From an uncultured Clostridia bacterium (GTDB lineage: Bacteria > Bacillota > Clostridia > Christensenellales > UBA1242), in contig CALWDZ010000002.1 in the NCBI GenBank assembly GCA_944376845.1, positions 44,233-108,232 of the forward strand: 64,000 nucleotides of DNA. Reading direction: 5' to 3'. The position numbers and the translations under genes were made by a program. Position 1 is the stretch's first letter, and the number at the start of each line of letters is the position of its first letter. The notes under the pieces were generated by a model that saw nothing but the letters and a program-made list of their open reading frames with translations, did not search any database and had not been told where the DNA came from. This document shows positions 1-49,752 of this stretch, one piece after another.

Positions 1-1118
1 ACGTTTTGTTCTAATAGCTTAGCAATATCCATTCTCTTTTGATGCAATTTAATGCTATTTTTATAAAGTTCACTATTTATATCTTCTTTTTCTTTATCAA
101 GTTTTAAAATAACTTTTTCACTATTTAAAATATTATCATATCTGTTTTGTGCGTTTGAAAGAAAAGTCAAAATTCCTTCTATAGTTGAGCCATACTTTCG
201 TTTTAAAGACTTTATTCGTTCCTGCCTTTCAACAAGGTCATCAAGATCATTTTGAGAAAACTCTAAAGACAAAAGCAGTTCCTTTAAATCACTTTGTATA
301 TCTTCAAGTTCAATCTCTATACTTTCTAGTCTATCATGAATTTTTGAAACTTTGTCATTATATTGTGAGATAGTTGCCAAAGCACTTAAAGCAACTCCCA
401 ATCGGTTTGCAGTCAAATTTTCAAGCGAAGAACTCAAGGCGGATGATATTTTCTCAGCATTAGATAATGTAACAATTTGAGAATCAAGTTTTTCATCTTC
501 TCCAATATATAAATTACTATTTTCAATCTCATCAATCTGATATTTTAGCAAATCTAATGTACGCTCTCTATCTTCACCCTTTCCACCAATTTGTGCCATT
601 TGTTCATTTACTTTTTTAAGCGAATCAAGTAAAGATTTAATTCGTTCTTTTTCGGGAACCAAATTTTGACTATCATAACCATCTAAAAGTTTTAAATGAT
701 TTTTAGTATTTAAAAGTTCTACGTTGTCATGTTGACCATACATATCATATAATGTTTCACCAAATTGCCTAACCATTGAAACGCTTACAATTTCTCCGTT
801 GATTTTACAAGACGATTTCCCGTCCATATTATAACTACGGCTGATAATAAGCACATCATCACATTCAATATCAAAGGCACATAATGATTTTATAGTCGAT
901 TCTTGCAAATCTATAAATGTAGCCTTAACAAAAAGTTCTTCTTCGCCATTTCTTATATCTTCTTTCTGAGCCTTAGCACCAAGAACAAACTTCAATGCAT
1001 CCAAAATTATACTTTTACCAGCACCAGTTTCACCAATCAAAACATTGAAGCCTCTATTAAACTCGAGGCTTGAATTTTCAATAATAGCAAAATTTTTAAT
1101 AGTTAACTTCTGTAACAT
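1..1118 (-). CDS. recN: DNA repair protein RecN (5' part; runs off the left edge)
   Basis: Hand translation from ATG at 1118: MLQKLTIKNFAIIENSSLEFNRGFNVLIGETGAGKSIILDAL (Walker A GETGAGKS); follows argR. Confidence 0.95.
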   Translation of the reverse strand, partial: MLQKLTIKNFAIIENSSLEFNRGFNVLIGETGAGKSIILDALKFVLGAKAQKEDIRNGEEELFVKATFIDLQESTIKSLCAFDIECDDVLIISRSYNMDGKSSCKINGEIVSVSMVRQFGETLYDMYGQHDNVELLNTKNHLKLLDGYDSQNLVPEKERIKSLLDSLKKVNEQMAQIGGKGEDRERTLDLLKYQIDEIENSNLYIGEDEKLDSQIVTLSNAEKISSALSSSLENLTANRLGVALSALATISQYNDKVSKIHDRLESIEIELEDIQSDLKELLLSLEFSQNDLDDLVERQERIKSLKRKYGSTIEGILTFLSNAQNRYDNILNSEKVILKLDKEKEDINSELYKNSIKLHQKRMDIAKLLEQN

Positions 1119-1124
1119 AATTAC

Positions 1125-1577
1125 CTATCTTATAAATTGTTCAAGAGTTGTGCTTGCCTTTTGAGCAGAAAGTGTTGTTGGCATAATAACCATAACTGTA
1201 TCGTCACCATAGACAGAACCCATAACATCTTCTACATTCAATTTGTCAATAATTGCACAAATACCACTAGCCAGACCTTTCACTGTTTTTATAACACATA
1301 AATTGCCGGCAGGTTTTATGGATATAACAGACTCACGGAATATAGAGATATTTTTATTTGAAACACTTTGGTCAGTGGAATCCATAAGAGCATATTTATA
1401 TTTTCCATCCGGTGTTTGAATTTTGATAAGACCTAGTTCTTTTATATCACGCGAAATTGTTGCTTGTGTTATATCAAAATTCGCCGCTTTCAAACATGCA
1501 ACCAGTTCGTCTTGGGATGCAATTTCTCTTGTAGAAATAAGTTCTAGGATTTTTGATTGTCTTGATGACCTTGCCAC
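1125..1577 (-). CDS. argR: Arginine repressor ArgR/AhrC
   Basis: TQATISRDIKELGLIK HTH, GDDT arginine-binding motif; GTG start with AAGGAG RBS. Confidence 0.96.
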   Translation of the reverse strand: MARSSRQSKILELISTREIASQDELVACLKAANFDITQATISRDIKELGLIKIQTPDGKYKYALMDSTDQSVSNKNISIFRESVISIKPAGNLCVIKTVKGLASGICAIIDKLNVEDVMGSVYGDDTVMVIMPTTLSAQKASTTLEQFIR

Positions 1578-1631
1578 TTTTAACTCCTTTGCAAACGCTA
1601 CAACCCTTATAAATAAAGGGTTTTAAGCCCT

Positions 1632-1800
1632 TATGAATAATTATGCACGCATATTTATTCATGTTGTTTGGAATTATTATACAATGTAATTTATAATTAT
1701 GCAAGCAAATTTTGCATAATTATTCATTCGATTTTTTATGAATATTCATAACTTTTATAATTATCAAAAAGCCAATGTTTAATTATGCATAAGTGCATAA
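1632..1800. promoter_or_regulatory. Cluster of ARG-box-like operators upstream of argR
   Basis: ATGAATAATTATGCA (1633-1647), GCATATTTATTCAT (1649-1662), TTATAATTATGCAA (1691-1704), TTGCATAATTATTCAT (1712-1727), weaker copies near 1738 and 1776-1800; fit Firmicute TGMATA-WW-TATKCA. Confidence 0.75.
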
Positions 1801-1813
1801 AAAAAAGAATGCT

Positions 1814-2533
1814 TTAATCTGCATCCTTTTTATTTACTTCAGCTTGTTCTATGTTTGTACTATGTTCTGTATTCGTTTGTGTTAATACTTCCTCAGTACT
1901 CATTTCCTCTTGTTGAATTAACTGCCCTTCTTCTTGTTTTGTCTTCTTAGATTTTTTACCCTGAGGAGTAAACCAACTTATAACCTTACCAACAGCAAGC
2001 ATAATTTTGTTACAATTTTTCATGGCATATTTTTTACCAAGCGACTTTCCAAAGATTGTCATACTCGCTATCACTGCACTAACTAAAGAAGCAATTATAA
2101 TTCCCAAAGCGGATTCCGAATCTATCGCAATTTTAACAATGATACTTGCTCCTGCAGCACCAGACAAAATTCCACAAACGTCACCCACAACATCGGCAAT
2201 AATACTTGTAAATTTATCAGCGTTCTTTATCAGCCTAATCGCTTCTTTGGCTCCTCTAATTTTTTTTGAAGCCATAGCTCTAAATGGTTGTATATCTGCA
2301 GCAGTTACCGCAACACCAATCATGTCCGTCAGAATTGATATACTCATAAATACAACAATGACTAGAATTGCAATTACAACGCCAGTGCCACTTAAGAAAA
2401 ATTCACTCAGCACACCAAAGCACATTGAAAGTGCAAACGATAGTACTAGAACTTTAAGTGACCATATTAGTTGTTTATGATTTTGATTTTGTTTTTTTAC
2501 CGTTTTATTTTTCGGGTTTGGTTTCGTTTTCAC
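1814..2533 (-). CDS. oapA: OLE-associated protein A (CNNM/DUF21-like membrane protein)
   Basis: Hydrophobic helices, PFRAMASKKIRGAKEAIRLIKNADK and DVVGDVCGILSGAAG (DxxxD) motifs; directly downstream of the OLE RNA. Confidence 0.88.
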   Translation of the reverse strand: MKTKPNPKNKTVKKQNQNHKQLIWSLKVLVLSFALSMCFGVLSEFFLSGTGVVIAILVIVVFMSISILTDMIGVAVTAADIQPFRAMASKKIRGAKEAIRLIKNADKFTSIIADVVGDVCGILSGAAGASIIVKIAIDSESALGIIIASLVSAVIASMTIFGKSLGKKYAMKNCNKIMLAVGKVISWFTPQGKKSKKTKQEEGQLIQQEEMSTEEVLTQTNTEHSTNIEQAEVNKKDAD

Positions 2534-2619
2534 TATCTTTCCTTTATTTATATATATATGTATTTTTTAAAAACATAACAAATTTTGTTTTTAAACAAAA
2601 CTTGAGATTATACAAAAAA

Positions 2620-3186
2620 ATGAAGGTAACATTTTGAGTAAACCTTGTGGCATAGGTTCGGTAGGATTTCCCCAAACTTCGCACCCACCGTCACCGCATG
2701 GGCAGTTTCCTTTTAAGCGAAGGCTGACACCGAATCGCCACTAAGACCACACTATAATCCCCAAAATGTTCGACTAAAAGTCACAGTCTAGAAGTTTTCC
2801 TTAGCAGTCTGAACCATTCTTAGCTTTTTTTGCAAACTTGATTTCAAACACAAAGTAGATTTATTGATTGGCCGGTCTTTAAATTACCTTAACGCATTAT
2901 CCCTACAAGTTCACTCAAAGCAGGCTACTCTGCACACAGCCATTTTTGTTTAACCGCAATGCAGGTTCTCCCCAAACAGTACCACTTTGGTGGCACCATT
3001 TTGGGTCTCCGCGAAAATTGGGTCGGGGGTTATATGCCGTTATAACTCGCCCAATAATCTTAACTTCCAGCACGCACCCCAATTTGGGCAATCGAAGCAC
3101 GCACCAGAAACTTCACAGTTGTGCCCTTCGTTGCTTTTGTATCAACTTCCAAATAGTTCAGCCTGACTAGAATACTGCACCTTCAT
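2620..3186 (-). ncRNA. ole: OLE RNA (ornate, large, extremophilic RNA), ~565 nt
   Basis: Minus strand has OLE hallmark blocks GGUGCAGUAUUCUAGUCAGG, AAGGGCACA, GUAGCCUGCUUUGAGUG, GAAAACUUCUAGACUG, UGGGGAAAUCCUACCGAACCUAUGCC; ends pair (UGAAGGUG / UACCUUCA); GC-rich relative to flanks; xseB-ole-oapA-argR-recN synteny. Confidence 0.92.
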
Positions 3187-3190
3187 ATAT

Positions 3191-3219
3191 ATTATATCAT
3201 ACATATGTAAAAAATACAA
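3191..3219 (-). promoter_or_regulatory. Sigma-A promoter of ole
   Basis: TTGTAT (3219-3214), 17-nt spacer, extended TG-n-TATAAT (3196-3191) a few nt before the RNA 5' end. Confidence 0.75.
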
Positions 3220-3228
3220 CAATTTTAT

Positions 3229-3435
3229 TTACTTCATTTCTCGTTCAATTACAGCATCAAGTTCAGATACAAGTTCAGTTATCTTTCCCTTGCTCTCATC
3301 CAAAATTTGACAACAACTCTTCGCAATTTGTTTTCCTTCATCAAACAATTCTATTGCTTGATTAAAAGAGCATTCACCGCTTTCAAGTGCAGAAACAATT
3401 TCTTCTAATCTTTTTAATTTTTCTTCAAAAGTCAT
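3229..3435 (-). CDS. xseB: Exodeoxyribonuclease VII small subunit
   Basis: MTFEEKLKRLEEIVSALESG; follows xseA. Confidence 0.95.
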   Translation of the reverse strand: MTFEEKLKRLEEIVSALESGECSFNQAIELFDEGKQIAKSCCQILDESKGKITELVSELDAVIEREMK

Positions 3436-3438
3436 ACT

Positions 3439-4614
3439 TTACTCCTTATCATTAACTTTCGCATAAATTTTACCATCCGACATCTCAACAACTATGTCGT
3501 CACCTATGTTTACATTTCTTACAGAATTAATTTGTTCACTATCCTTTTTAACTACAGCAAAGCCTAGTTTTAGTACTTCGCTTGGATTAAGCTTTTGTAA
3601 TTTGTTTTCCAAAAGTTTAAACTTGTTATCAAGAGAACTATAAAAGTTATTAGCAGCATATTTTAACCGAATTACAAGTTTAGAAAGTAAATTCGCATTC
3701 AAAACATTTTTAGAATTAAAAGCATCAATCAAATTTCTAGACAATGTAGTGAATAAACCATGTTTTTCAATATAGATAGTTTGTATTGATTGTCTTAGGC
3801 GTGGCAAAAGAGAATAAAATTTTGAAATTTGTTCCCCCATATCACTACACAGAAGTTCTGCAGCCACACTAGGCGTAGGTGCTCTAAGGTCACTGCAAAA
3901 ATCACAAATAGTGTAGTCTGTCTCATGTCCAACTGCAGATAAAATAAATTTATTAGCACCAAATACAGCGTCCGCTACGACTTCAGTGTTAAAGGGAGCC
4001 AGGTCTTCTAGTGAGCCACCACCTCGCGCAACAATTATTACATCTACATTGTAATTGTCCAAAAATTTAATACCCTTGGCGATTTCATACTCTGCACCAA
4101 TTCCTTGAACTCGAACAGGATATAAAACTATATCTATATAAGGATTTCGCCTTGTACGCACATTTATTATGTCCTGAATTACCGCCCCTTCTTTGCTAGT
4201 AACGACCCCTATTCGTTTTATAATCTTTGGCATAGGTATTTTATGAGATTCATCAAAATAACCTTTCGCTTCTAAGTCAGCCTTTAACTTTAAGAATTGC
4301 TGATACAACTCTCCAAGTCCAAACTTTTCTACTTTTTGAACATTAAAATTGAGTTTGCCACCTTTTACATAATATCTCGGAGTACCAGTCAATATTACTT
4401 TATCACCATTTTGATATGAAAAATTTGAAATATCAAAACACACGCAAGACATTGTAGCACCTTCATCTTTCAATACAAAATAAGCCACATTCCTTACAAT
4501 GCTAAGCCCTGATATTTCGCCCACCACACGGACATTAAACAACAATTCTTCAGCATCAAATATTTGCTTAAAATAAGTAGATATTTGAGTGACTGTTAAA
4601 GGCCTTTGCTCCAC
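3439..4614 (-). CDS. xseA: Exodeoxyribonuclease VII large subunit
   Basis: VVGEIS, ARGGGSLEDL, AVGHETD, RAPTPS motifs. Confidence 0.97.
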   Translation of the reverse strand: MEQRPLTVTQISTYFKQIFDAEELLFNVRVVGEISGLSIVRNVAYFVLKDEGATMSCVCFDISNFSYQNGDKVILTGTPRYYVKGGKLNFNVQKVEKFGLGELYQQFLKLKADLEAKGYFDESHKIPMPKIIKRIGVVTSKEGAVIQDIINVRTRRNPYIDIVLYPVRVQGIGAEYEIAKGIKFLDNYNVDVIIVARGGGSLEDLAPFNTEVVADAVFGANKFILSAVGHETDYTICDFCSDLRAPTPSVAAELLCSDMGEQISKFYSLLPRLRQSIQTIYIEKHGLFTTLSRNLIDAFNSKNVLNANLLSKLVIRLKYAANNFYSSLDNKFKLLENKLQKLNPSEVLKLGFAVVKKDSEQINSVRNVNIGDDIVVEMSDGKIYAKVNDKE

Positions 4615-5003
4615 TATTTCTCCTCTAGTATAGTTTTTAATATACCGTTCACAAAAGCATAACTTTTTTCAGTTCCGTATTTTTTAGCGAGATTGACCGC
4701 TTCATTTATAACAACTTTTTGAGGTGTTTGCCCATAAAATTTTAATTCTGCCACCGCAACTATGATAATTGCTTTATCTACCCTGTATAGTCTTTCTAAA
4801 CTATAATCTTTTAAATGCGAAGAAATTAAGTTTTCAATTTCATTCAAATTATCAATTGAAAGTTTTACAAGTGTTGTCGCAAACTCAACATCTTCAGGTT
4901 TTGTCAAATCCTCAAAATCAAAAATTCCATCCATATTTGTGGTGGAATTAAACAATGTTTCAAACACTTTACAAAACGCTACTTCTCTTGCATATGCACG
5001 CAT
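4614..5003 (-). CDS. nusB: Transcription antitermination factor NusB
   Basis: VVINEAVNLAKKY...FVNGIL; ATG at 5003 preferred (GAGG upstream) over GTG 5015. Confidence 0.93.
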   Translation of the reverse strand: MRAYAREVAFCKVFETLFNSTTNMDGIFDFEDLTKPEDVEFATTLVKLSIDNLNEIENLISSHLKDYSLERLYRVDKAIIIVAVAELKFYGQTPQKVVINEAVNLAKKYGTEKSYAFVNGILKTILEEK

Positions 5004-5018
5004 ATTAACCCTCACTAT

Positions 5019-5043
5019 AAAAAATCCACTTAAAAGTGGATTT
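5019..5043 (-). terminator. Intrinsic terminator-like hairpin between Asp23 gene and nusB
   Basis: AAATCCACT-TAAA-AGTGGATTT with U-tract on the minus strand. Confidence 0.6.
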
Positions 5044-5047
5044 AATT

Positions 5048-5428
5048 TTACTCTTCTGCTCTAAAATCAACACCCACGATATGGATATTTATTTTATTCA
5101 CCCTCATCTCTACCATAGAAACAATATTGTTTTTTATGTTCTCTTGAACTCTATAAGCAATATCAGGAACACTGTTTCCGCTATAAATCCTAATGTAAAC
5201 ATCAATAATAAGTTGTCCGTTCTGCGCAATCTTTAGTTTGACACCAGTTGAATCTGATTTTGAAAACATCTTTTTTAGTTTCATAGAAAAACTATCTTGC
5301 AGGCTGGACACACCACTTATCTCTTTTGTTGCCAATGAGATGATGGATAATAAAATATTTCTATCGCAAGTTATTTTACCTTTATCTTCTTGAAGTTGAC
5401 TGTATGGCTGTGACACTAGTATCCTCAC
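5048..5428 (-). CDS. Asp23/Gls24 family protein (YqhY-like)
   Basis: VPDIAYRVQENIK...INIHIVGV; position before nusB. Confidence 0.85.
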   Translation of the reverse strand: MRILVSQPYSQLQEDKGKITCDRNILLSIISLATKEISGVSSLQDSFSMKLKKMFSKSDSTGVKLKIAQNGQLIIDVYIRIYSGNSVPDIAYRVQENIKNNIVSMVEMRVNKINIHIVGVDFRAEE

Positions 5429-5493: not shown

Positions 5494-5967
5494 TTATTCT
5501 ACAGGAATTATTTTAATATTATCTATTGATTTTTGTGTTTGTTCTTGAACTATAGCGACAATCTGAGCAACTTGTGAACTTTCAAGACTTGCACATTTAA
5601 CAATGACATTTATATTATTAGCAGAATTTGTTACAATTGCGTCTTCAAAACCTTTTGCCTTAATTAACCCTTCCATGACAAGTTCTGATTCCATTTGATC
5701 AACTATTTCAAGTTTCATTGCTTCTGCATTTGCCTTTGCTTCGGCAGTTGAATCTTCAGAATTTATAATTGCATCATAATATAAAAGTTCTTGATCACGT
5801 GTTGTTTGTCTATCTTGTCTGTATGTATCAAAATAATTCATCTGTGTAACTGTTCCCGTAGTTGGTGTTGTTGCATTATTATTGAGTGCAATATTTAAAT
5901 ATCCAGTAACTCCAAGTAATAAAACCATAGCAACCAAAATAATAATTTTTGTTCTCTTTTTTAACAT
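5494..5967 (-). CDS. spoIIIAH: Stage III sporulation protein AH
   Basis: N-terminal TM with GYLN, EGLIKAKGFEDA; operon order. Confidence 0.9.
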   Translation of the reverse strand: MLKKRTKIIILVAMVLLLGVTGYLNIALNNNATTPTTGTVTQMNYFDTYRQDRQTTRDQELLYYDAIINSEDSTAEAKANAEAMKLEIVDQMESELVMEGLIKAKGFEDAIVTNSANNINVIVKCASLESSQVAQIVAIVQEQTQKSIDNIKIIPVE

Positions 5968-5979
5968 AATAAACTCCTT

Positions 5980-6534
5980 TTATTTCCCTACTAATATTTC
6001 TATATCTTCTGCATTAATCTCAAGTAATGCCATTACTGCTTTTTGCAGTTCGAGCATTACACTTATGTTACTTGCCCCACTACTTACCACCAAAACTCCA
6101 CTGACCTTTGGTAAATTTTCTCTGATTATTATAGGAGAATCTCTACCTGATTGCGAAACCAAAATCAATTCCTCAGTGGTTGTTGTTTGAGTGGTCGTTG
6201 TTCCACCAACAGTTTGAGAAGTGGTTTCCTCTGTTGTATTTGTCGCATAAACATACTCTACACCACAACTTAAGGTTACCATTACGCTAACATTTCCTGC
6301 CCCATTTATTTGCGAGAGTACATTTGATAATTTATTCTCAAGGTACTGTGCATATTCCTCTGTTGTAAGTGCTGTTAATGTATTTTCTTCGCTTTTTGTA
6401 GAAGAAAAAGTCGAACTATATATGAGTAACAATATTGCACAAAACACTACTACTATAATAATTTCAAAATGTTTAATATTTTTGATCTTATCCCAAAATG
6501 CAATCTTTTTTTGTTTAGTTTCCACTAAAAACAA
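5980..6534 (-). CDS. spoIIIAG: Stage III sporulation protein AG
   Basis: LENKLSNVLSQINGAGNVSVMVT, PKVSGVLVVSSGA. Confidence 0.9.
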   Translation of the reverse strand: MFLVETKQKKIAFWDKIKNIKHFEIIIVVVFCAILLLIYSSTFSSTKSEENTLTALTTEEYAQYLENKLSNVLSQINGAGNVSVMVTLSCGVEYVYATNTTEETTSQTVGGTTTTQTTTTEELILVSQSGRDSPIIIRENLPKVSGVLVVSSGASNISVMLELQKAVMALLEINAEDIEILVGK

Positions 6535-7003
6535 TATTCTCCTTTTCCAAACTTACAAATGAAGTAATTACATCAACCGCCTCATTCTCTATATCTATAT
6601 GCTCGTTCCCATCGACTATAACTAAATTACTAAAATCGACATAAATCGTTTCAATTTGCATAACTGTAGTAAAAATATCCGCCGAAATTGATATATCAAC
6701 ATTTTTAAGACCTCTTGCATCAAGCGTACTTTCGATGCCAGTTTCAAGCATAGTAAGTTTATCTCTATTAAGTTGATAAATATAATCTTCTTGAAGCACT
6801 ATTTCAGTTTCTGTAAATATAGATGAAGCGTTAAAATCAGATTTTATAAGAGCCGGCAATGGCGCAATTATTACAAATACAATAACGTAGTTAAAAACAG
6901 TTTTAATATGTCCATTTGTTTGTCCGTTTGGTAAAAATAAATCTATCAATATTGAAAGCACACTCACACCGGCTATAGACAAAATCCAAGCAGAAATACT
7001 CAT
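6515..7003 (-). CDS. spoIIIAF: Stage III sporulation protein AF
   Basis: Two N-terminal TMs (DLFLP...IIAP); operon order. Confidence 0.8.
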   Translation of the reverse strand: MSISAWILSIAGVSVLSILIDLFLPNGQTNGHIKTVFNYVIVFVIIAPLPALIKSDFNASSIFTETEIVLQEDYIYQLNRDKLTMLETGIESTLDARGLKNVDISISADIFTTVMQIETIYVDFSNLVIVDGNEHIDIENEAVDVITSFVSLEKENIVFSGN

Positions 7004-7015
7004 CTCCCTCTCCTT

Positions 7016-8221
7016 TTAAAAAAAGTTCGCACTAAGCATTATCATCCCTGTCATAAGTAAATACATAAATGCACAACCAAGAATCAATACAATAAGCAAT
7101 GAAATACTTTTGGCAAGCATGGATATAAAATTAGATATCCTAGAATCAGTGATAGGCTCCAAGACTGCCGCTACCAATTTTAAAGAAAGCATAAACACAA
7201 CAAGATTTAAAACAGGCACAATAATTGTTGCAAATAACAAGACTAGTCCGGCAGCACCAACTGCATTTTTTATAAGTACGCTACTTGCAACTATTAAATT
7301 CAACCCATCTGACAAATATGATCCAACAAGAGGGATAGAATTTTTTATTGCATACTTTGCCGTTCTAAAAGATATACCATCAACACTACCAGCAGTAATA
7401 CCTTGTATAGCCAAAAATGCAGAAAATACTGTAAATACTCCACCAACTATCCATTTAAACAAACTTGAAAAAAATGATGCGAATTTATCCAGTTTAACAT
7501 TATTTGAAAGGTTTCCAACAATCGAAAACACTAGTTTAAAAATAAATATTGGCATCAAGATGTTAGTAAAGATATTTATAATTGTTCCACTAAGAACAGC
7601 CACAGCGGGTTGATATACACTCACAGAAGTAACACCACCTATAGCGGTCAATACTGTCAATAAAATAGGAAATGCAACATCCATTTGCGCTTTAATATTT
7701 TGTAAAGTGTCCGATGTTAAAGTCAGCATATTAACGCTATATCCAACAAGTACAACTATAATAGCACCAAAACAGACAAAATGAATAACATCACCAATTG
7801 ATTTATTTTTGGAACTTGGACGCGACGCGTTTACCAAACTAAATGTAACCGCAATTGCAATTACTAATGAGAGTATTGGCAAAAATGATAACACATCTTC
7901 AAAGAATAAATTCAGTATACTTGTCCAAATAGAATTTCCGTTTTCCGTAAATTCTCCGCTTATGATTTGTTTTATTTTATCTAAGAAAGAATCATTACCA
8001 AAGATTTCTTTCCCTTCCCCAGTTAATGAATTTAACGCGTCTTCAAGTTCACTAAAATCCAAATCACCAAGCTGTGACCCTATGCTATCTTCAATTATAT
8101 CTTCTATTTCAGAAGATGTTAACTCATCGTCACAATAAACAACCTCTTTTGCATTTCCTGCAAATATAAATGGTATAAACACAATCAAAAAAACAAATAC
8201 AAGTGTAAGATATTTTTTCAT
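7016..8221 (-). CDS. spoIIIAE: Stage III sporulation protein AE
   Basis: Polytopic; RTAKY...IPLVG...SD...IKNAVG. Confidence 0.92.
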   Translation of the reverse strand: MKKYLTLVFVFLIVFIPFIFAGNAKEVVYCDDELTSSEIEDIIEDSIGSQLGDLDFSELEDALNSLTGEGKEIFGNDSFLDKIKQIISGEFTENGNSIWTSILNLFFEDVLSFLPILSLVIAIAVTFSLVNASRPSSKNKSIGDVIHFVCFGAIIVVLVGYSVNMLTLTSDTLQNIKAQMDVAFPILLTVLTAIGGVTSVSVYQPAVAVLSGTIINIFTNILMPIFIFKLVFSIVGNLSNNVKLDKFASFFSSLFKWIVGGVFTVFSAFLAIQGITAGSVDGISFRTAKYAIKNSIPLVGSYLSDGLNLIVASSVLIKNAVGAAGLVLLFATIIVPVLNLVVFMLSLKLVAAVLEPITDSRISNFISMLAKSISLLIVLILGCAFMYLLMTGMIMLSANFF

Positions 8222-8604
8222 GGCAATATCTCCACTATGATTTCTATTATGCTTGTAACTATTGGCAATGCCATTACAAGAATTATAATCTTACCTGCAA
8301 AAAGAATTTTATCTGCAACACTGCTAGAGCCAGCATCATTGCATAAGTTTGCTGAAAATTCTGTTAAATAGCCCACTCCGATAATTTTTAATAATGTTTT
8401 TAATAATCCCGCATCAAGTCCCGTCTTATCAACAATACTTGAAAATGCATCAATTATATCAACGACATAATTGATAGTTTGAATCAATATAAGGACTCCA
8501 CCACAAAGGCCTATAATTATACTAACTTCTGGTTTAATAGGTTTTACAAGAATTGAGGCAATAACTGTAATAAGACCAATGCCAACGATCTTTATTATAT
8601 CCAT
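8218..8604 (-). CDS. spoIIIAD: Stage III sporulation protein AD
   Basis: LLKIIGVGYLTEFSANLCNDAG. Confidence 0.93.
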   Translation of the reverse strand: MDIIKIVGIGLITVIASILVKPIKPEVSIIIGLCGGVLILIQTINYVVDIIDAFSSIVDKTGLDAGLLKTLLKIIGVGYLTEFSANLCNDAGSSSVADKILFAGKIIILVMALPIVTSIIEIIVEILP

Positions 8605-8613
8605 ATCACCTCC

Positions 8614-8808
8614 TTAAAGGCCAAACAAATTCCTAACCGTGTCAAATAATGTGCTTATAAGATCCAAAACCATTAGTAAAACAATTATGAGCCCTGCCAG
8701 TGTTGAAAATGTCGCAATTTCTTCTTTGCCACTTTGTTTGAGTATTTGACCCACCACTGTTGTGAGTATTCCTACAGCGGCGATTTTGAATATAACTTCA
8801 ACACCCAT
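8614..8808 (-). CDS. spoIIIAC: Stage III sporulation protein AC
   Basis: IFKIAAVGIL...LKQSGKEE. Confidence 0.93.
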   Translation of the reverse strand: MGVEVIFKIAAVGILTTVVGQILKQSGKEEIATFSTLAGLIIVLLMVLDLISTLFDTVRNLFGL

Positions 8809-8817
8809 AAACTTCTC

Positions 8818-9312
8818 CTATATAATCAGCAAACAGACAAGTATACCAACAATGATTCCCAACTTTATAAATAGTCCTGAATATTTCTTGCAGTCTTCCT
8901 GAGCCTGAGTGCTATAATTATTGATTGATATTTGATAAGTTTTAATCTCTTTGCTTTGCGCAATTACGTCATACTTACCAAGAGATGAAAAAAATTTGTA
9001 TAATAATTGACGTTCGTCATTTTTTAATATTTTTACATCATCAAACATCTTTTCGGTTATCGCTTGCTTATTCTCTATTGCAAAAATTATATTTTGACAC
9101 AAATCACAAAGTTCTCGACTTGCACACACTTCCACATTTTTCTTTAATATGTTGGCAAGTTTATCTCTACTAAATACAACATCGGCTTCTAGATTTGAAA
9201 GCATAAGCACTAGTGAACCAAAGAACTTTTTCCTGTTTACGTAATACGATGATAATTTAAATCCTATTAAAGCAAAGCAAACAATTATAATTACTATTAA
9301 TATAATCGTCAT
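8818..9312 (-). CDS. spoIIIAB: Stage III sporulation protein AB
   Basis: N- and C-terminal TMs, LGKYDVIAQ, KLG motif; operon order. Confidence 0.85.
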   Translation of the reverse strand: MTIILIVIIIVCFALIGFKLSSYYVNRKKFFGSLVLMLSNLEADVVFSRDKLANILKKNVEVCASRELCDLCQNIIFAIENKQAITEKMFDDVKILKNDERQLLYKFFSSLGKYDVIAQSKEIKTYQISINNYSTQAQEDCKKYSGLFIKLGIIVGILVCLLII

Positions 9313-9315
9313 AAT

Positions 9316-10227
9316 TCACCACTTTACAATCTTAGCAAATTTCTCATTGTATGTACCTTCATATGTCCCTGGCCCCTCACGTTTTGAAAGAAATACATAT
9401 CTCTGAAAATATTGAGATGGTAAATTAACAAAAAAGTCTTTACGCCTAAGCTCTTCAATGCTAGAAGCATGAGCAGTAGCCATAACCTTAACACCACAAT
9501 TCATTGCATCAATTAAGCACTTTGCGTCTTCTTTATCTCCAATTTCATCAGTAACAATTAGTCCCGGGTTCATTGACCTAATGCATTGCATAAAACCTAT
9601 TTGTTTACTACAAAAACTTACAATATCACAGAAATTACCAAGGTCTAATTTACTATCAATTCCACCAGCAATCTCGCCTCGTTCATCAACAACCGATACA
9701 TTTAAGCAATAGTTATGTTCTGAAAGTTGAAATAAAAAATCTCGCAAAAACGTAGTTTTGCCCGCACCAGGAGGAGAAACTATAAGGCAATTCTTTATGC
9801 CAGTTTCATCAACAATATCATCAAATGCACAAAGCGACATATTTTTGATTTGGTGAGGAATACGAATATTTATGCTAGTCCAGTTTGTTATGGTTTTTAC
9901 TTGTCCATTTTCTTCAACAACATTGCCACAAAGCCCTATTCTTACACCATTAGACATCGTAATATAGCCATTCTTTATTTGCTCATTGACTGAATAAATT
10001 GAATAATCACTGGCTTTGTAGACAATGTCCGCTATCATTTCCTGTGTGCAAAACATTGCACTATTCAAATCGCAACATAGCCCTTTGTCACTTATATAAT
10101 ATGGTTGACCTTTAACAAATACAACAATAGGTTTATTAGCCCTAAGCCTAATTTCAGATAAGGTCGATAATGCTATTTTATAATTAATTATATTTGCAAG
10201 AGGCTCCGAAAGTATTTCTTGTAACAT
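9316..10227 (-). CDS. spoIIIAA: Stage III sporulation ATPase AA
   Basis: EIRLR, SPPGAGKTT Walker A, VDERGEIA, RSMNP...DEIG. Confidence 0.95.
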   Translation of the reverse strand: MLQEILSEPLANIINYKIALSTLSEIRLRANKPIVVFVKGQPYYISDKGLCCDLNSAMFCTQEMIADIVYKASDYSIYSVNEQIKNGYITMSNGVRIGLCGNVVEENGQVKTITNWTSINIRIPHQIKNMSLCAFDDIVDETGIKNCLIVSPPGAGKTTFLRDFLFQLSEHNYCLNVSVVDERGEIAGGIDSKLDLGNFCDIVSFCSKQIGFMQCIRSMNPGLIVTDEIGDKEDAKCLIDAMNCGVKVMATAHASSIEELRRKDFFVNLPSQYFQRYVFLSKREGPGTYEGTYNEKFAKIVKW

Positions 10228-10282
10228 ATTTTTCTCCTATTACAATGTATAATGTGAGAAAAATTAAATCATAACTAAACAC

Positions 10283-10319
10283 AAAAAAAATATGCAATAT
10301 TATAAAATACTGCATATTT
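10283..10319 (-). terminator. Terminator after efp
   Basis: AAATATGCA...TGCATATTT inverted repeat plus poly-U on the minus strand. Confidence 0.55.
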
Positions 10320-10336
10320 CGACAAATTTTTAAATT

Positions 10337-10897
10337 TTACTTTACACGTTCCATATAACTGCCATCACGAGTATCAACACGTATTTTTTCACCATTGTTA
10401 ACAAAAAGTGGAACACCAATTACATAACCAGTTTCAAGAGTTGCTGGTTTGTAACTAGATTTTGCTGTATCCCCTTGAATACCAGGCTCACAATCAACAA
10501 TTGTAAGTTCAACAAATGTTGGTGGTTCAACTGAAAATGCTGTGCCTTTATAAAATTGAACTGTTGCCATCATATTTTCTGTAATAAAATTCATAGCATC
10601 TGCAACTTGCGATTTGTTAAAAGGAATTTGATCATATGTTTCCATATCCATAAAGTAATAAAGGTCACCTTCATGGTATAAATACTGCATTTCCTTTCTT
10701 TCGATGACTGCAACTTGGAATTTGTCAGTTGGATTAAAAGTTCTTTCTATAACCTGTCCTGTTATTACATTCTTTAACTTTGTTCTTACAAATGGGGAAC
10801 CTTTTCCTGGTTTTACATGCATAAATTCAACGACAGTGTAAACATTGCCCTCCATTTCAAAAGTAACGCCTTTTCTAAAATCTCCTGCTGTTATCAT
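10337..10897 (-). CDS. efp: Elongation factor P
   Basis: VKPGKG loop, [13 protein letters not shown]. Confidence 0.97.
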
Positions 10898-14373: not shown

Positions 14374-16833
14374 TTAACCTCTTTTAATTTCAACTTTTTG
14401 ATAAACTTCCAAAACATCACCAACTTTGACATCTTGGCTATCTTTCAGTTTAATTCCACATTCATAACCATATGGAACTTCCGCTTTGTCATCTTTTTGT
14501 ATTCGAAGTGCAACTATGCTCGTTTCTAGAACTTTATCTTTTCCTCTGTATACATTTACAAACGCATTTCTAGCAACTTTTCCATCAGTCACATAACTTC
14601 CACAAACAACGCCACTTGTTGAAAGTTTGAACATCATTCTAACTTCTGCATGCCCAATAATCTGCTCTTCATATTTAATGCTAAGCATACCATTAAGTGC
14701 CTTAGATATTTCATCTACTACTTCATAAATAATCTTATATGACTTGATTTGAACCGACATTGAATCCGCCAGTTGTTCAATTTTTGATGAAATTTTTAAA
14801 TTGAAATTTATGATAACGGCACCACAAGCCTGAGCAAGTAAAAGGTCCGATTCTGTAACAGGTCCCGCTCCACTATGGATACAAACAACTCTTGCTTCTT
14901 CGTTTTTAAGTGCAACCAATGATTGTTTTAGCGCTTCAACAGAACCTTGAACATCAGCCTTAATAATGATATTTAACGCTTTAAGTTTGCCTTCGTTTAC
15001 TTTATCCATAAAATCTTCAAGTGAAACACCGCTGGTTGAATGAGAGCGAAGTTCTTTTGCTTTAGCAATACGTTCATCAATTACTTGTTTAGATAACTTT
15101 TCATCTACTGCAAATACTCTATCTCCTGAATTAGGAACGCTATCAAGGCCAAGGACTGCAACTGGTGTGCTAGGTCCAGCAGATTTAACTGGTTTACCAT
15201 TTTCATCAAACATTGCCCTAACTTTACCAAATGATGTACCGCTGATGATTGAATCTCCAATGTGGAGTGTACCATTTTGTACAAGCACTGTAGCAACAGC
15301 ACCACGATTTTTATCTAATTCCGCTTCGAGAACTGAACCTGTCGCACTAGATTTAGGATTTGCTTTAAGTTCAGAAACTTCTGCAACAAGTAATATTGTT
15401 TTAAGCAGTTCGTCAAGCCCTAAACCTTGCTTTGCCGAAACTGGCACCAAAATTGCATCTCCACCCCATTCTTCAGGCAAAACTCCATTTTCAGCCAACT
15501 GTTGTTTAACTCTTTCAATATTCGCTTCAGGCTTATCTATTTTGTTAATTGCCACAATCATAGGAACCTCTGCTGCTTTGATATGGTTAATCGCTTCTAC
15601 AGTTTGTGGCATAATTCCATCGTCGGCTGCAACCACTAATATAGCAATGTCAGTAACTTTTGCACCACGAGCACGCATAGCGGTAAAAGCAGCGTGACCT
15701 GGTGTATCTATAAAGGTAATTTTTTCTCCATTGTAGTCAATTTGATATGCGCCAATCTTTTGCGTAATTCCACCTGCTTCACCAGCAACAACATTGGTCT
15801 TTCTTATAGCGTCTAGAAGCGATGTCTTACCATGGTCAACATGTCCCATAACTGCCACAACTGGTGGACGTTTTACCATATCTTTTTCGTCGTGTTCATG
15901 TTCTTTGACATCATCCAAAAGTTGCTCTTCGTAAGTTTTTTCAATTTTTTGTTCAAGTTTTACACCAAGTTCACTTGCAACAAGTTCGGCTGTCATAAAG
16001 TCAATCGAACTATTGATATTAGCCATTATACCAAGCATCATTAATTGCTTTATAATCTCAGTGACAGGTCTTCCAGTTTTTTCTGAAAGTGTTTTTACTG
16101 TTACATCTTCAGTTGTTATAACCGCATTTTCAACCTTTGGAGCAACAAAAGTTTTTTGTTCTTTTTTCTTATGAGCAAGTTTTCTGTTACCCATTCTCTC
16201 GCCATCAAAGTCCACACTATCATCTACAATGAAGTTTTTACGCAAAAGTGCCCGCTTGTTGGTTTGACGTTTTTCTTCCGGTGCTCTATTAGACTTGTTT
16301 TTATTTCCATAGTTGCGTTCTGGTTGAGATAGTACGCTACTACTTTCTAAAGGCTCAAAAACCTTAAACGAATTGGCTTTAGAACTAACAAAATTATTTC
16401 CTTTAGGACGATTTCCAAATGGTTTATTTTGCTGACCAAAACGATTGTTTTGAGATGGTCTTTGATTTTGAAAACCAGGTTTTTTAAAATCACGATTATT
16501 TTGCTTTTGTGGAAATTCTCGTCTTTTATCGTAATTTATTTTATTTTGGTTTGTTTTTGTCTGTTGAGTTTGTCCCATATGATTTTGACTTTCTGTTTTA
16601 TTTACTACTGTTTGAGTTTGAGAAGTTTCTTTTGTTTGTGCCTCTTGAACTGTTAAACGTGTTTGTTTTTCTGCTTGGAATGTTCTTAGAACATCGTCAA
16701 GTTGAGATTTTGACGCCCTTAAATCACGAAGCAGTATTTGAACTGTTCCGTTTCTTTGAAGGCCAAATATAGATTTCAAGTTGTTTAATCCGTTTTGTTG
16801 TTTTTCTGCTTGTTTATTTATCAATGTTTTCAC
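14374..16833 (-). CDS. infB: Translation initiation factor IF-2
   Basis: RPPVVAVMGHVDHGKTSLLD, DTPGHAAF, NKID; exact start uncertain. Confidence 0.97.
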   Translation of the reverse strand: MKTLINKQAEKQQNGLNNLKSIFGLQRNGTVQILLRDLRASKSQLDDVLRTFQAEKQTRLTVQEAQTKETSQTQTVVNKTESQNHMGQTQQTKTNQNKINYDKRREFPQKQNNRDFKKPGFQNQRPSQNNRFGQQNKPFGNRPKGNNFVSSKANSFKVFEPLESSSVLSQPERNYGNKNKSNRAPEEKRQTNKRALLRKNFIVDDSVDFDGERMGNRKLAHKKKEQKTFVAPKVENAVITTEDVTVKTLSEKTGRPVTEIIKQLMMLGIMANINSSIDFMTAELVASELGVKLEQKIEKTYEEQLLDDVKEHEHDEKDMVKRPPVVAVMGHVDHGKTSLLDAIRKTNVVAGEAGGITQKIGAYQIDYNGEKITFIDTPGHAAFTAMRARGAKVTDIAILVVAADDGIMPQTVEAINHIKAAEVPMIVAINKIDKPEANIERVKQQLAENGVLPEEWGGDAILVPVSAKQGLGLDELLKTILLVAEVSELKANPKSSATGSVLEAELDKNRGAVATVLVQNGTLHIGDSIISGTSFGKVRAMFDENGKPVKSAGPSTPVAVLGLDSVPNSGDRVFAVDEKLSKQVIDERIAKAKELRSHSTSGVSLEDFMDKVNEGKLKALNIIIKADVQGSVEALKQSLVALKNEEARVVCIHSGAGPVTESDLLLAQACGAVIINFNLKISSKIEQLADSMSVQIKSYKIIYEVVDEISKALNGMLSIKYEEQIIGHAEVRMMFKLSTSGVVCGSYVTDGKVARNAFVNVYRGKDKVLETSIVALRIQKDDKAEVPYGYECGIKLKDSQDVKVGDVLEVYQKVEIKRG

Positions 16834-17131
16834 CTCTCATACTCTCTAATATTTTATCTGAAATTGCTTTATTTTTAAAGGCAATAATTTTGCAATTTTT
16901 TATACTAATTATTGATAAAAACTCTTCTTCATTCAGTTTTACTACCTTATAATCAGTAGTACTTTTTATACTTTTTAAAATTCCCAGTAAATTGTTTGAA
17001 GGGTTTGTATATAAAACTAAATATAACTTTTTTGAATAGTTTTTTAAATTATCTTGTCCTATTATTGCAAAACCGCCTTTTCTTGCAATATCAACATACC
17101 TTTTAACTTCATTTTGTTGTTTTGGTGTCAA
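16814..17131 (-). CDS. L7Ae-family protein (YlxQ position), divergent
   Basis: IARKGG...G pattern; lies between ylxR and infB. Confidence 0.6.
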   Translation of the reverse strand: MTPKQQNEVKRYVDIARKGGFAIIGQDNLKNYSKKLYLVLYTNPSNNLLGILKSIKSTTDYKVVKLNEEEFLSIISIKNCKIIAFKNKAISDKILESMRGENIDK

Positions 17132-22005: not shown

Positions 22006-22015
22006 TTTATCTCCT

Positions 22016-49391: not shown

Positions 49392-49751
49392 TTATTTTTT
49401 GAATATTTTAACGAACTCAAAAATACTTAAAATTATTAAAAAAACTCCAAATAGTATTTTTAAAACTCCGCCGTCTATTAAATTTGCCAAGATACTCCCC
49501 ACCACTGCAAAAACAATACCGGACGGAATAAGTATAAAAAGATATTTAGGCACAATCAATTTGTTTTTTATGTGAATTAGTATTGCAATGACGCTCATCG
49601 GCAAAAACGCTATTAAATTATATCCCTGAGCAAGAATTTGACTAACATCGGAAAATATTGTCAATAATGGTATAAGAAGCGTACCACCTCCCATTCCCAT
49701 AGCCCCAACTATACCAGAAAGAAAACCAAAGATAATAAATAAATACCACAT
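49392..49751 (-). CDS. TauE/SafE (TSUP) transporter half-protein
   Basis: GAMGMGGGTLLIP; 4 TM. Confidence 0.85.
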   Translation of the reverse strand: MWYLFIIFGFLSGIVGAMGMGGGTLLIPLLTIFSDVSQILAQGYNLIAFLPMSVIAILIHIKNKLIVPKYLFILIPSGIVFAVVGSILANLIDGGVLKILFGVFLIILSIFEFVKIFKK

Positions 49752-49752
49752 T

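What the first reader, a model, noticed from the sequence alone, without database searches (positions are those of the whole stretch)
1814..3219. OLE RNA + oapA retained as a stand-alone unit in a stripped-down locus
A ~565-nt OLE RNA with paired ends, a dedicated sigma-A promoter and intact oapA (DxxxD) is present. In known carriers ole typically lies between ispA and tlyA/nadK-argR-recN; here ispA, dxs, tlyA and nadK are absent from the locus while ole-oapA is kept. That argues for selection on OLE function unrelated to the isoprenoid neighbours (inference). The RNA is somewhat shorter than the ~600-nt norm, and the segment before UUAAAAGGAAAC appears to lack a hairpin I recall from other OLE RNAs, so it may be a natural minimal variant. 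Automated ORF calling would miss it or call spurious ORFs over it.
Basis: partly seen in the sequence, partly recalled or inferred. Interest (0 to 1): 0.72.

Follow-up and report, generated by a model that had tools for sequence, protein, structure and literature searches.

The report
OLE RNA–OapA unit lacking hairpin P13
This is a genuine OLE RNA gene with its membrane-protein partner gene oapA, of an already described reduced type that lacks the hairpin bound by the partner protein OapB, so it is a correct but fairly ordinary find.

Summary
Rfam's OLE model (RF01071) matches window 2607-3199 (-) over its full length at 419.9 bits, E 6e-120. An intact oapA with a DVVGD motif follows at 2533-1814.

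The gene order is nusB-xseA-xseB-OLE-oapA-argR-recN. No ispA, dxs, tlyA or nadK was found in any of the 66 window ORFs scanned.

The "missing hairpin" is P13, the primary OapB-binding site. Nineteen model positions are replaced by one base.

None of this is unique to the window. Of 67 OLE loci compared, 21 lack P13. Those 21 form one side of a single OapA-tree branch, and none has ispA or dxs nearby. Their fold is kept, with 69 compensated pairs.

A conserved TTGnnn-17-TGnTATAAT promoter sits directly upstream of OLE.

Fernando & Breaker 2024 already describe OLE variants that lack the OapB site, found in reduced gut Clostridia.

Verdict: a new member of a known kind. It most likely forms a membrane-anchored OLE-OapA particle that works without OapB at P13. 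Whether oapB, oapC and the MEP-pathway genes are absent from the genome cannot be seen from 64 kb.

The parts
3214..3219 (-). -35 hexamer TTGTAT of the promoter in front of OLE
   Evidence: Sequence. A TTGnnn hexamer sits 17 nt (18 nt in one locus) before the -10 element in all 12 close loci inspected. It matches the consensus at only 3 of 6 positions, so the generic scan did not list it.
3191..3199 (-). Extended -10 element TGA-TATAAT. The transcription start is expected at about 3185-3183.
   Evidence: Sequence. The position is conserved in all 12 close loci inspected. Under strict criteria, 12 of 21 P13-less loci and 11 of 46 loci with P13 have such an element 8-14 nt before the GTGCAG motif.
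2607..3199 (-). OLE RNA as matched by Rfam RF01071. The RNA proper is probably about 3184 to 2614.
   Evidence: 419.9 bits, E 6.1e-120, model positions 1-616. Covariation within the clade.
3178..3184 (-). 5' strand of P1 (GAAGGUG)
   Evidence: Pairs with 2628-2622. Six of the 8 pairs of this helix show compensatory changes across 21 sequences.
2622..2628 (-). 3' strand of P1 (UACCUUC)
2724..2728 (-). Junction linker GUCAG where hairpin P13 (the primary OapB site) would lie, between the 5' strand of P12.2 (2734-2729) and the 5' strand of P14 (2723-2717)
   Evidence: 19 model positions replaced by 1 base; the anchor-to-anchor segment is 29-31 nt in the window and 20 loci, against 47-49 nt in the P13-bearing loci (anchor slipped in L038, L051, L059; hairpin present). 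The name and role of P13 come from passages of PMC7936274.
2691..2694 (-). GUGA tetraloop closing P14.1. In H. halodurans the corresponding GNRA loop is a weak secondary OapB site.
   Evidence: a G[UC][GA]A loop is present in all 21 P13-less sequences. Its role comes from PMC7936274.
2614..2620 (-). U7 tract, one base after the 3' strand of P1. It is a possible 3' end or a partial terminator.
   Evidence: Sequence. L001 and L002 have the same tract. L003, L004, L006, L009, L012 and L026 instead have a hairpin followed by a U run after OLE. Its function is inferred.
1814..2533 (-). oapA, 239 aa, GTG start preceded by AAAGGAAAG
   Evidence: Pfam CNNM at 2.2e-9. There are 808 homologues, the best at 84% identity. 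OLE lies upstream on the same strand in 76 of 80 oapA loci.
2180..2194 (-). Codons for DVVGD, the DxxxD motif (OapA residues 114-118)
   Evidence: D114, G117 and D118 are invariant in 24 sequences.
3229..3435 (-). xseB, the upstream neighbour. It sits where ispA would otherwise lie next to OLE.
   Evidence: Pfam Exonuc_VII_S at 3.3e-15. Locus comparison.
1125..1577 (-). argR, the downstream neighbour. It follows oapA directly, where dxs-tlyA-nadK would otherwise lie.
   Evidence: Pfam Arg_repressor, N- and C-terminal domains. Locus comparison.
3..1118 (-). recN (runs off the end of the window)
   Evidence: Pfam SMC_N and AAA_23.

Best explanation
The region is a functional ole-oapA module of the P13-less type. 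In print this is part of what Fernando & Breaker call 'variant 1'. It sits in an uncultured, low-GC, spore-forming Clostridia lineage related to the Christensenellales-like gut MAGs.

Shown here:
- A full-length OLE fold, apart from the missing P13.
- An intact OapA.
- A promoter-like element conserved in position directly upstream of OLE.
- Purifying selection on the RNA helices across the clade.
- One clade-level loss of P13, coinciding with loss of ispA, dxs, tlyA and nadK from an ancestral xseAB-ispA-ole-oapA-dxs-tlyA-nadK-argR-recN cluster.

Inferred mechanism:
- OLE is transcribed from its own sigma-A promoter, starting at about 3184. Read-through from xseB is possible, and read-through into oapA is likely.
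- It folds into the usual two-domain RNA.
- OapA, a small CNNM-type membrane protein, anchors it at the membrane.
- It then acts like other OLE particles in stress adaptation.
- Because P13 is gone, P12.2, P14 and P15 meet in a three-way rather than a four-way junction. The particle therefore assembles without high-affinity OapB binding.
For: - Full-length match to the OLE model at 419.9 bits.
- oapA follows directly on the same strand and has invariant D114, G117 and D118.
- OLE lies upstream of oapA in 76 of 80 related loci.
- Across the 21 P13-less sequences, 145 pairs were tested: 96.9% of cells pair and 69 pairs have compensatory changes. No shuffle reached this (0 of 500), and slid controls paired 36-45% of cells with at most 26 compensated pairs.
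- Absence of P13: 19 model positions replaced by 1 base, and a 29-31 nt segment against 47-49 nt in the P13-bearing loci.
- The P13-less state needs one change on the OapA tree, on a branch with SH-aLRT 95. All 21 P13-less rows lack ispA and dxs within 6 ORFs.
- The window's exact gene order recurs in L001, L003, L007 and L010. It probably recurs in L002 too, where my ORF caller missed xseB.
- The promoter is conserved in all 12 close loci inspected, including loci with unrelated or opposite-strand upstream genes.
- Literature: P13 with its GNRA loop and bulge is the primary OapB site (PMC7936274, passages). Variant OLE RNAs that lack this site occur in reduced gut lineages that largely lack OapB and OapC (PMC11332333, section 5).
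Against: - There is no expression, localisation or binding data for this organism.
- The generic promoter scan did not list the OLE promoter and found no excess of promoter-like sites: 15 found against 17.2 expected.
- The -35 hexamer matches the consensus at only 3 of 6 positions.
- Absence of oapB from the genome is not shown, because only 64 kb is visible.
- The P14.1 GNRA loop, a weak secondary OapB site in H. halodurans, is retained in all 21 sequences, so OapB could still take part.
- P8 and P9 are not shortened, and the Rfam score of 419.9 is higher than that of the other P13-less loci tested (344-418). Assignment to the published 'variant 1' class, which was defined by bit score with a different model, is therefore not exact.
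- The OapA tree was built by the quick method on 211 columns. The P13 state was scored with anchor motifs, and 10 loci with cut or unanchored OLE were left out.
Confidence: 0.85

Rival explanations
1. OapB is still a partner. The particle is of the ordinary kind, and OapB binds the retained GNRA tetraloop of P14.1 instead of P13.
For: A G[UC][GA]A tetraloop closes P14.1 in all 21 P13-less sequences, and its stem covaries (helix 24). PMC7936274 (passages) calls the P14.1 GCGA loop a weak secondary OapB site.
Against: In H. halodurans, high-affinity binding needs the P13 loop, its single-base bulge and the P12.2 backbone. PMC11332333 section 5 states that lineages with variant OLE RNAs largely lack OapB and OapC. 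No KOW-type protein other than EF-P appears among the 66 window ORFs scanned, although oapB is not normally linked to ole anyway.
Confidence: 0.2
2. The locus is stripped because this lineage lost the MEP isoprenoid pathway altogether. Under this reading ispA and dxs were deleted rather than moved, and ole-oapA simply stayed where it was.
For: dxs and ispA are absent from the locus. The window has uppS-cdsA-rseP (23688-20695) with no dxr between cdsA and rseP and no ispG after rseP; the expectation that they sit there in Bacillus and Clostridium is recalled, not tested. tblastn with dxs, ispA, tlyA and nadK proteins gave 0 hits in 428,153 bases, made up of the window plus 20 P13-less loci. PMC11332333 section 5 says the lineages with variant OLE RNAs have reduced genomes.
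Against: uppS and cdsA are present, so the cell still needs IPP and FPP. nadK, which is near-universal (recalled), is also missing from the locus and so must have moved, which shows that relocation happens here. Only 64 kb of the genome is visible. No mevalonate-pathway gene was seen in the window either.
Confidence: 0.35
3. The RNA is a decaying relic that no longer functions.
For: It has lost a hairpin that is essential for function in H. halodurans, and the host lineage is reduced.
Against: The bit score is high. Compensatory changes occur in 69 of 145 pairs across 21 species-level genomes. oapA is intact and conserved, and the promoter is conserved.
Confidence: 0.03
4. The 570 nt are a long structured 5' leader that regulates oapA in cis, not a separate RNA.
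For: There is no clear terminator between OLE and oapA in the window. The spacer fold is no better than shuffles (z -1.79, 13 of 200 shuffles fold as well). No good oapA promoter was seen.
Against: Close relatives L003, L004, L006, L009, L012 and L026 have a hairpin followed by a U run directly after OLE. L004 and L006 then have a new promoter-like site before oapA. In H. halodurans OLE is an abundant stable RNA (PMC12265935, section 3).
Confidence: 0.03

Closest known systems
Full-length OLE RNA with OapA (Halalkalibacterium halodurans, Clostridium acetobutylicum, C. botulinum; Rfam RF01071)
   Same: The window RNA matches the model over its full length. P1, P2, P5-P12.2, P14, P14.1 and P15 are kept, with covariation. 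The conserved J4a/5 and J5/6 sequences are near the consensus. oapA lies directly downstream, and the host is in Bacillota.
   Different: There is no P13 hairpin, so P12.2, P14 and P15 form a three-way instead of a four-way junction. The window RNA is about 564 nt, against a median of 617 nt in the 46 loci with P13. ispA, dxs, tlyA and nadK are not adjacent.
'Variant 1' OLE RNAs of Fernando & Breaker 2024 (most common in TANB77; PMC11332333 sections 5 and 12)
   Same: The nucleotides of the OapB site at P13 are missing. The hosts are uncultured gut Clostridia with small genomes. P7 is somewhat shorter, by 9 nt relative to the Rfam consensus.
   Different: P8 and P9 are at consensus length. The published class was defined by bit score (310-390) with a model I do not have; with the Rfam model the window scores 419.9, against 344-361 for five other P13-less loci. 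The one named close relative, L010 (Ca. Caccopulliclostridium), was placed by its authors in order 4C28d-15, family UBA1242, not in TANB77 (PMC8035907, one passage).
'Variant 2' OLE RNAs (commonly RF39), which lack P7 and P8
   Same: It is a reduced OLE RNA in a reduced-genome Bacillota lineage.
   Different: The window RNA keeps P7 and P8.
MpfA / CNNM-family Mg2+ transporters (relatives of OapA)
   Same: OapA matches the CNNM transmembrane domain, PF01595. The relationship is discussed in PMC11332333 (abstract).
   Different: OapA here is 239 aa and has only the transmembrane domain plus a charged tail. No further Pfam domain was found beyond PF01595.

Membership tests
OLE RNA (Rfam RF01071) | Covariance-model score above the gathering score over the whole model | tested here: met
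   419.9 bits against a gathering score of 50, model positions 1-616, E 6.1e-120.
OLE RNA (Rfam RF01071) | Ornate multi-helix fold kept by compensatory changes | tested here: met
   Across 21 clade sequences, 145 pairs were tested: 96.9% of cells pair and 69 pairs have changes on both sides. No shuffle reached this (0 of 500), and slid controls gave at most 26 such pairs. The structure was predicted from these same sequences, which favours it.
OLE RNA (Rfam RF01071) | oapA immediately downstream on the same strand | tested here: met
   oapA is at 2533-1814 (-), 73 nt after the RNA. The same arrangement is seen in 76 of 80 related loci.
OLE RNA (Rfam RF01071) | Host is an anaerobic or extremophilic member of Bacillota | tested here: met
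   The nearest loci are Clostridia MAGs. The window has a spoIIIA operon and 32% GC. The organism itself is not named, and anaerobiosis is inferred.
OLE RNA (Rfam RF01071) | P12.2/P13/P14/P15 four-way junction, with a P13 hairpin carrying a GNRA loop and a single-base bulge (primary OapB site) | tested here: not met
   P13 is absent: 19 model positions are replaced by 1 base, and the segment is 30 nt against 47-49 nt in the P13-bearing loci. This feature defines the full-length form, not the family as a whole.
OLE RNA (Rfam RF01071) | Sequences in J4a/5 and J5/6 that can form the k-turn (OapC site) | tested here: inconclusive
   These stretches match the model consensus almost exactly and are invariant within the clade. 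I did not model the k-turn itself. Its position comes from passages of PMC9723947.
OLE RNA (Rfam RF01071) | Abundant, stable, membrane-localised RNA | not testable with these tools
   Needs RNA-seq and fractionation.
OLE 'variant 1' (Fernando & Breaker 2024) | OapB-binding nucleotides of P13 missing | tested here: met
   The definition comes from PMC11332333 section 5.
OLE 'variant 1' (Fernando & Breaker 2024) | Shorter P7, P8 and P9 | tested here: inconclusive
   P7 has a 9-nt deletion relative to the Rfam consensus, while P8 and P9 are at consensus length. Segment lengths overlap those of loci with P13.
OLE 'variant 1' (Fernando & Breaker 2024) | Infernal score of 310-390 bits with the authors' own model | not testable with these tools
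   Their model is not available here. With the Rfam model the window scores 419.9, and six other P13-less loci score 344-418.
OLE 'variant 1' (Fernando & Breaker 2024) | Genome lacks oapB and oapC | not testable with these tools
   Only 64 kb is visible. No KOW protein other than EF-P and no L7Ae-type protein appears among the 66 ORFs scanned. The ORF in the ylxQ position (16814-17131) has no Pfam, NCBIfam or PDB match.
OapA | Small membrane protein with a CNNM/DUF21-type transmembrane domain only | tested here: met
   PF01595 covers residues 74-188 of 239, and no other domain passes its cut-off.
OapA | Conserved DxxxD motif | tested here: met
   DVVGD at residues 114-118, with D114, G117 and D118 invariant in 24 sequences. 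That this motif matters for function is recalled, not read here.
OapA | Binds OLE RNA and brings it to the membrane | not testable with these tools
   Known for H. halodurans (PMC12265935 section 3). The palindromic CUAG-containing stretches around P2 are invariant in the clade.

The most novel reading that the evidence does not exclude
In this clade, one evolutionary step removed both the P13/OapB arm of the extracytoplasmic domain 2 of OLE and the link between ole and the isoprenoid genes. The MEP genes dxs, dxr, ispG and ispA all seem to be missing from their usual places. If both losses are genome-wide, the P13-OapB arm would be the part of the particle that couples OLE to isoprenoid or envelope-lipid supply, and the remaining RNA plus OapA would be the self-sufficient core.
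Probability: 0.1. Interest if true: 0.6.

Novelty: new member of a known kind. Interest (0 to 1): 0.3.

Why it matters
OLE is one of the largest bacterial non-coding RNAs whose biochemical function is still unknown. Natural reduced forms show which parts can be dispensed with. A clade of at least 21 species-level genomes keeps the whole fold under selection, yet lacks the hairpin that is essential for OapB binding in the model organism, and has no isoprenoid genes nearby. This argues that the RNA plus OapA is the core of the particle, and that gene linkage to ispA and dxs is not needed for its function. The principle is already in print, so this window adds a well-behaved example rather than a new idea.

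For annotation, the practical point is that ORF callers will place false genes over 2915-3170.

Tried and rejected
- The generic promoter and terminator scan of 1000-5200 listed no site for OLE and showed no excess (15 found against 17.2 expected). I relied on positional conservation instead.
- The OLE-oapA spacer (2640-2534) has an AU-only hairpin that folds no better than shuffles (z -1.79, 13 of 200 shuffles fold as well). I make no terminator claim.
- I considered a TATAAT at about 2612-2607 as an oapA promoter. Its -35 is poor and it is not conserved in L001, so I rejected it.
- I tested the ORF in the ylxQ position (16814-17131) as a possible L7Ae/OapC-like protein. It has no Pfam hit at E up to 1, no NCBIfam hit and no PDB sequence hit.
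- NCBIfam has no model that matches OapA.
- tblastn for dxs, ispA, tlyA and nadK in the window plus 20 P13-less loci gave 0 hits in 428,153 bases. This is not a genome-wide test.
- The supplement of PMC11332333 (one docx, searched by term) held only text and figure legends, with no per-genome table. I could not check how the authors classed the relatives.
- Paper searches: 'OLE RNA' + 'ispA' found 0 papers, and 'TANB77' + 'isoprenoid' found 1 unrelated preprint. I found no printed statement linking P13 loss to loss of isoprenoid neighbours. Only the CC-licensed library was searched, and the 2006, 2011, 2012 and 2023 Breaker-lab papers on gene context are not in it.
- Four oapA loci gave no OLE hit by nhmmer: L013, L032, L052 and L070. 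In L032 and L052 oapA lies within 200 nt of the start of the stored locus. L013 and L070 were not followed up.
- Ten loci were dropped from the P13 and tree analysis because OLE was cut or an anchor motif failed: L016, L020, L021, L031, L050, L055, L061, L065, L073 and L074.
Full report
OBSERVATION

A scan of the whole 64-kb window against Rfam gave one match above a gathering score: OLE (RF01071) at 2607-3199 on the minus strand. It scored 419.9 bits, E 6.1e-120, and covered model positions 1-616.

The two ends pair. GAAGGUG (3184-3178) pairs with UACCUUC (2628-2622), which gives about 564 nt from one strand of P1 to the other.

oapA follows 73 nt downstream at 2533-1814 (-) and encodes 239 aa. 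It matches the CNNM transmembrane domain PF01595 at 2.2e-9. It has 808 homologues with E up to 1e-3 among 1685 candidates, the best at 84% identity. It carries DVVGD at residues 114-118, and D114, G117 and D118 are invariant in an alignment of 24 sequences.

Mechanical ORFs lie over the RNA at 2915-3100 (-), 2946-3170 (+) and 2987-3166 (+). The warning about ORF callers is therefore fair.

SURROUNDINGS

Pfam annotation of 66 window ORFs gives this order on the minus strand: efp, spoIIIAA-AH, an Asp23-family gene, nusB, xseA, xseB, OLE, oapA, argR, recN.

None of the 66 ORFs matches a polyprenyl synthase (ispA), DXP synthase (dxs), FtsJ/S4 (tlyA) or NAD kinase family. tblastn with such proteins taken from other OLE loci found nothing in the window.

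COMPARISON WITH RELATED LOCI

An alignment of OapA relatives was used to fetch 80 loci from one-genome-per-species contigs. nhmmer with the window's OLE found the RNA directly upstream of oapA, on the same strand, in 76 of the 80. In two of the four without a hit, oapA lies within 200 nt of the start of the stored locus. The other two, L013 and L070, were not followed up.

I called ORFs with a simple script, clustered them by BLAST and named the clusters with Pfam. The common order is xseA-xseB-ispA | OLE | oapA-dxs-tlyA-nadK-argR-recN, as in L022, L038, L048 and L069.

The window's order, with those four genes excised and both outer flanks kept, recurs in L001, L003, L007 and L010. It probably recurs in L002 too, where my caller missed xseB. 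Other close relatives have OLE-oapA in unrelated settings. For example, it lies near uppP in six loci, which include all four full-length loci titled Candidatus Onthoplasma.

My ORF caller is crude. In GC-rich genomes it sometimes picked antisense ORFs, so a few "no dxs" calls among loci with P13 are probably artefacts.

THE MISSING HAIRPIN

In the model alignment, 19 consensus positions are replaced by one base. They lie between the 5' strand of a 6-bp helix and the helix that holds UUAAAGGGAAAC.

Passages of Yang et al. 2021 (PMC7936274) name these elements. P12.2, P13, P14 and P15 form a four-way junction. P13 is a hairpin with a GNRA loop and a single-base bulge, and it is the primary OapB site. 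The P14.1 GNRA loop is a weak second site.

So the window lacks P13. It keeps P12.2 (UUCGGU at 2734-2729 with ACCGAA at 2662-2657), P14, and P14.1 with a GUGA loop at 2694-2691.

I measured the distance between two anchor motifs in 67 OLE sequences: the window plus 66 loci. Ten loci were dropped because OLE was cut or an anchor failed. The result is bimodal. The segment is 29-31 nt in the window and 20 loci, and 47-49 nt in 43 others; in the remaining three (L038, L051, L059) the 5' anchor slipped (72-80 nt) but the P13 hairpin is visible. The longer form holds a visible stem with G[UC][GA]A loops, apart from one locus whose loop departs from that pattern.

P13-less RNAs have a median length of 565 nt (range 549-582). 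Those with P13 have a median of 617 nt (range 559-651).

IS THE REDUCED RNA STILL UNDER SELECTION?

I aligned the 21 P13-less sequences. RNAalifold predicted 145 pairs, and 69 of them have compensatory changes.

Counting those pairs with controls gave:
- 96.9% of cells paired, against 86.2% in shuffles (0 of 500 shuffles reached the observed value).
- 36-45% of cells paired when the 3' partners were slid by 1-3 columns.
- 69 compensated pairs, against at most 26 in the slid controls.

P1 has 6 of 8 pairs with changes on both sides, P12 has 8 of 11 and P14 has 7 of 7. P12.2 never varies.

The structure was predicted from the same sequences, which flatters the numbers. The margin is nevertheless large.

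ONE EVENT OR MANY?

A quick maximum-likelihood tree of OapA (67 rows, 211 columns) puts all 21 P13-less rows on one side of a branch with SH-aLRT 95. The state needs one change on the tree.

All 21 P13-less rows lack ispA and dxs within six ORFs. Of the 46 rows with P13, 38 have one of these genes nearby and 8 do not. The nearest group outside the clade (L024, L028, L036, L042, L051) keeps both P13 and ispA/dxs.

Loss of P13 and loss of the isoprenoid neighbours therefore map to the same lineage. That is one event, not a repeated correlation. A Bacilli-like group (L025, L053, L064, L071, L076) keeps P13 without such neighbours, so the two traits are separable.

PROMOTER AND ENDS

The window has TTGTAT (3219-3214), a 17-nt spacer, then TGA-TATAAT (3199-3191). 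This predicts a transcription start at about 3185-3183, just before P1.

The generic scan missed it because the -35 matches only 3 of 6 positions, and it found no excess of promoter-like sites in the region. However, all 12 of the closest loci I inspected have TTGnnn and a TG-extended -10 at the same distance from P1 (17-nt spacer; 18 nt in L009). These include loci whose upstream genes are unrelated or on the other strand.

Under strict criteria, the element is found in 12 of 21 P13-less loci and 11 of 46 loci with P13. A promoter before ole is therefore a family habit, not a peculiarity of this window.

After P1 the window has A then U7 (2620-2614). Relatives L003, L004, L006, L009, L012 and L026 instead have a hairpin followed by a U run there. 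In the window, the spacer before oapA folds no better than shuffles, and I saw no good oapA promoter. oapA is therefore probably read through from the ole promoter; this step is inferred.

WHAT IS KNOWN

Fernando & Breaker 2024 (PMC11332333; I read sections 5, 6 and 12) searched all GTDB genomes. They describe "variant 1" OLE RNAs with these features:
- They are most common in TANB77 but occur in many clades.
- P7-P9 are shorter.
- They often lack the OapB-binding nucleotides at P13.
- Their reduced-genome gut hosts largely lack OapB and OapC.

The window fits the P13 part of that description. It fits less well on P8 and P9, which are at consensus length.

The published classes were cut by bit score with a model I do not have. 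With Rfam's model the window scores 419.9. Six other P13-less loci score 344-418, and seven loci with P13 score 361-547.

One named close relative, L010 (Ca. Caccopulliclostridium gallistercoris), was placed by its authors in GTDB order 4C28d-15, family UBA1242 (PMC8035907, one passage).

Lyon & Breaker 2025 (PMC12265935, section 3 and passages) place P10-P15, and hence the OapB site, in "domain 2". They propose that this domain lies on the far side of the membrane.

MECHANISM

Shown:
- The fold.
- The partner gene.
- Selection on the RNA helices.
- Clade-wide absence of P13.
- Positional conservation of the promoter.

Inferred:
- The RNA is made from its own sigma-A promoter.
- OapA anchors it at the membrane.
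- It acts in stress adaptation as in H. halodurans.
- It assembles without high-affinity OapB binding.

Whether OapB still binds the retained P14.1 loop is open.

Whether the missing neighbours were deleted from the genome or moved is also open. In the window, uppS-cdsA-rseP lacks dxr and ispG at the places where I recall them in Bacillus and Clostridium, which hints at loss of the MEP pathway. Against that, uppS still needs its substrates, and nadK, which must exist somewhere, has also left the locus.

VERDICT

The finding is real and was read correctly. It is a new instance of a known RNA family, in a reduced form that is already in print. The added value is modest:
- A clean clade-level picture of P13 loss.
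- The excision of ispA, dxs, tlyA and nadK from an otherwise intact ancestral cluster.
- A conserved promoter directly before OLE.

Noticed in passing
window 20695-23688 (-): uppS, cdsA and rseP are adjacent, with no dxr between cdsA and rseP and no ispG after rseP. I recall both genes at those places in Bacillus and Clostridium. Together with the missing dxs and ispA, this hints that the MEP pathway may be absent.
   Followed up: partly
window 19121-20698 (-): This 525-aa ORF, directly upstream of rimP, matches only the N-terminal OB region and the 3'-5' exonuclease part of PolC (model positions 418-584 of 1445; 183 bits against a cut-off of 873). No polymerase part follows it. It is either a stand-alone PolC-like exonuclease or a split polC.
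   Followed up: partly
window 1633-1805, between oapA and argR: There are five or more copies of a palindromic unit of the type TGCATAATTATTCAT / ATGAATAATTATGCA. They resemble ARG boxes (consensus recalled) and lie upstream of argR. PMC12265935 mentions unpublished evidence that ArgR is an OLE partner.
   Followed up: partly
L008, L015, L017, L019, L045, L057 (upstream of OLE, about 6000-9300 in each): In these six loci, which include all four full-length loci titled Candidatus Onthoplasma, OLE-oapA lies just downstream of, or within a few ORFs of, uppP (BacA, undecaprenyl-diphosphatase). A metallo-beta-lactamase-fold gene follows in four of them. This is another neighbour from isoprenoid-lipid metabolism, in a clade that has lost ispA and dxs linkage.
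   Followed up: no
window about 3050-3005 (-), alignment A2 columns 135-181: The P6 helix is AU-rich in this clade (GAUUAUUGGG...CCCAAUUUUC in the window), with no CCUCC-like stretch. In H. halodurans, P6 carries an anti-Shine-Dalgarno mimic that is needed for bS21 binding (PMC12054373 passages; alignment).
   Followed up: no
window 49392-50142 (-): Two adjacent half-size ORFs of 129 and 119 aa each match one half of the TauE/SafE sulfite-exporter profile (positions 123-237 and 2-109 of 237). This is either a natural two-gene form or a split gene.
   Followed up: no
window 50223-53513 (+): A 1096-aa ORF with no Pfam or NCBIfam match is one of only two plus-strand genes in the window. The other is dinB at 61761-63005.
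   Followed up: no
L013 (oapA at 5578-6141) and L070 (oapA at 10001-10561): These are oapA relatives with several kb of upstream DNA but no OLE hit by nhmmer at E up to 1e-5. They may hold a very divergent OLE (for instance the RF39-type variant) or none.
   Followed up: no
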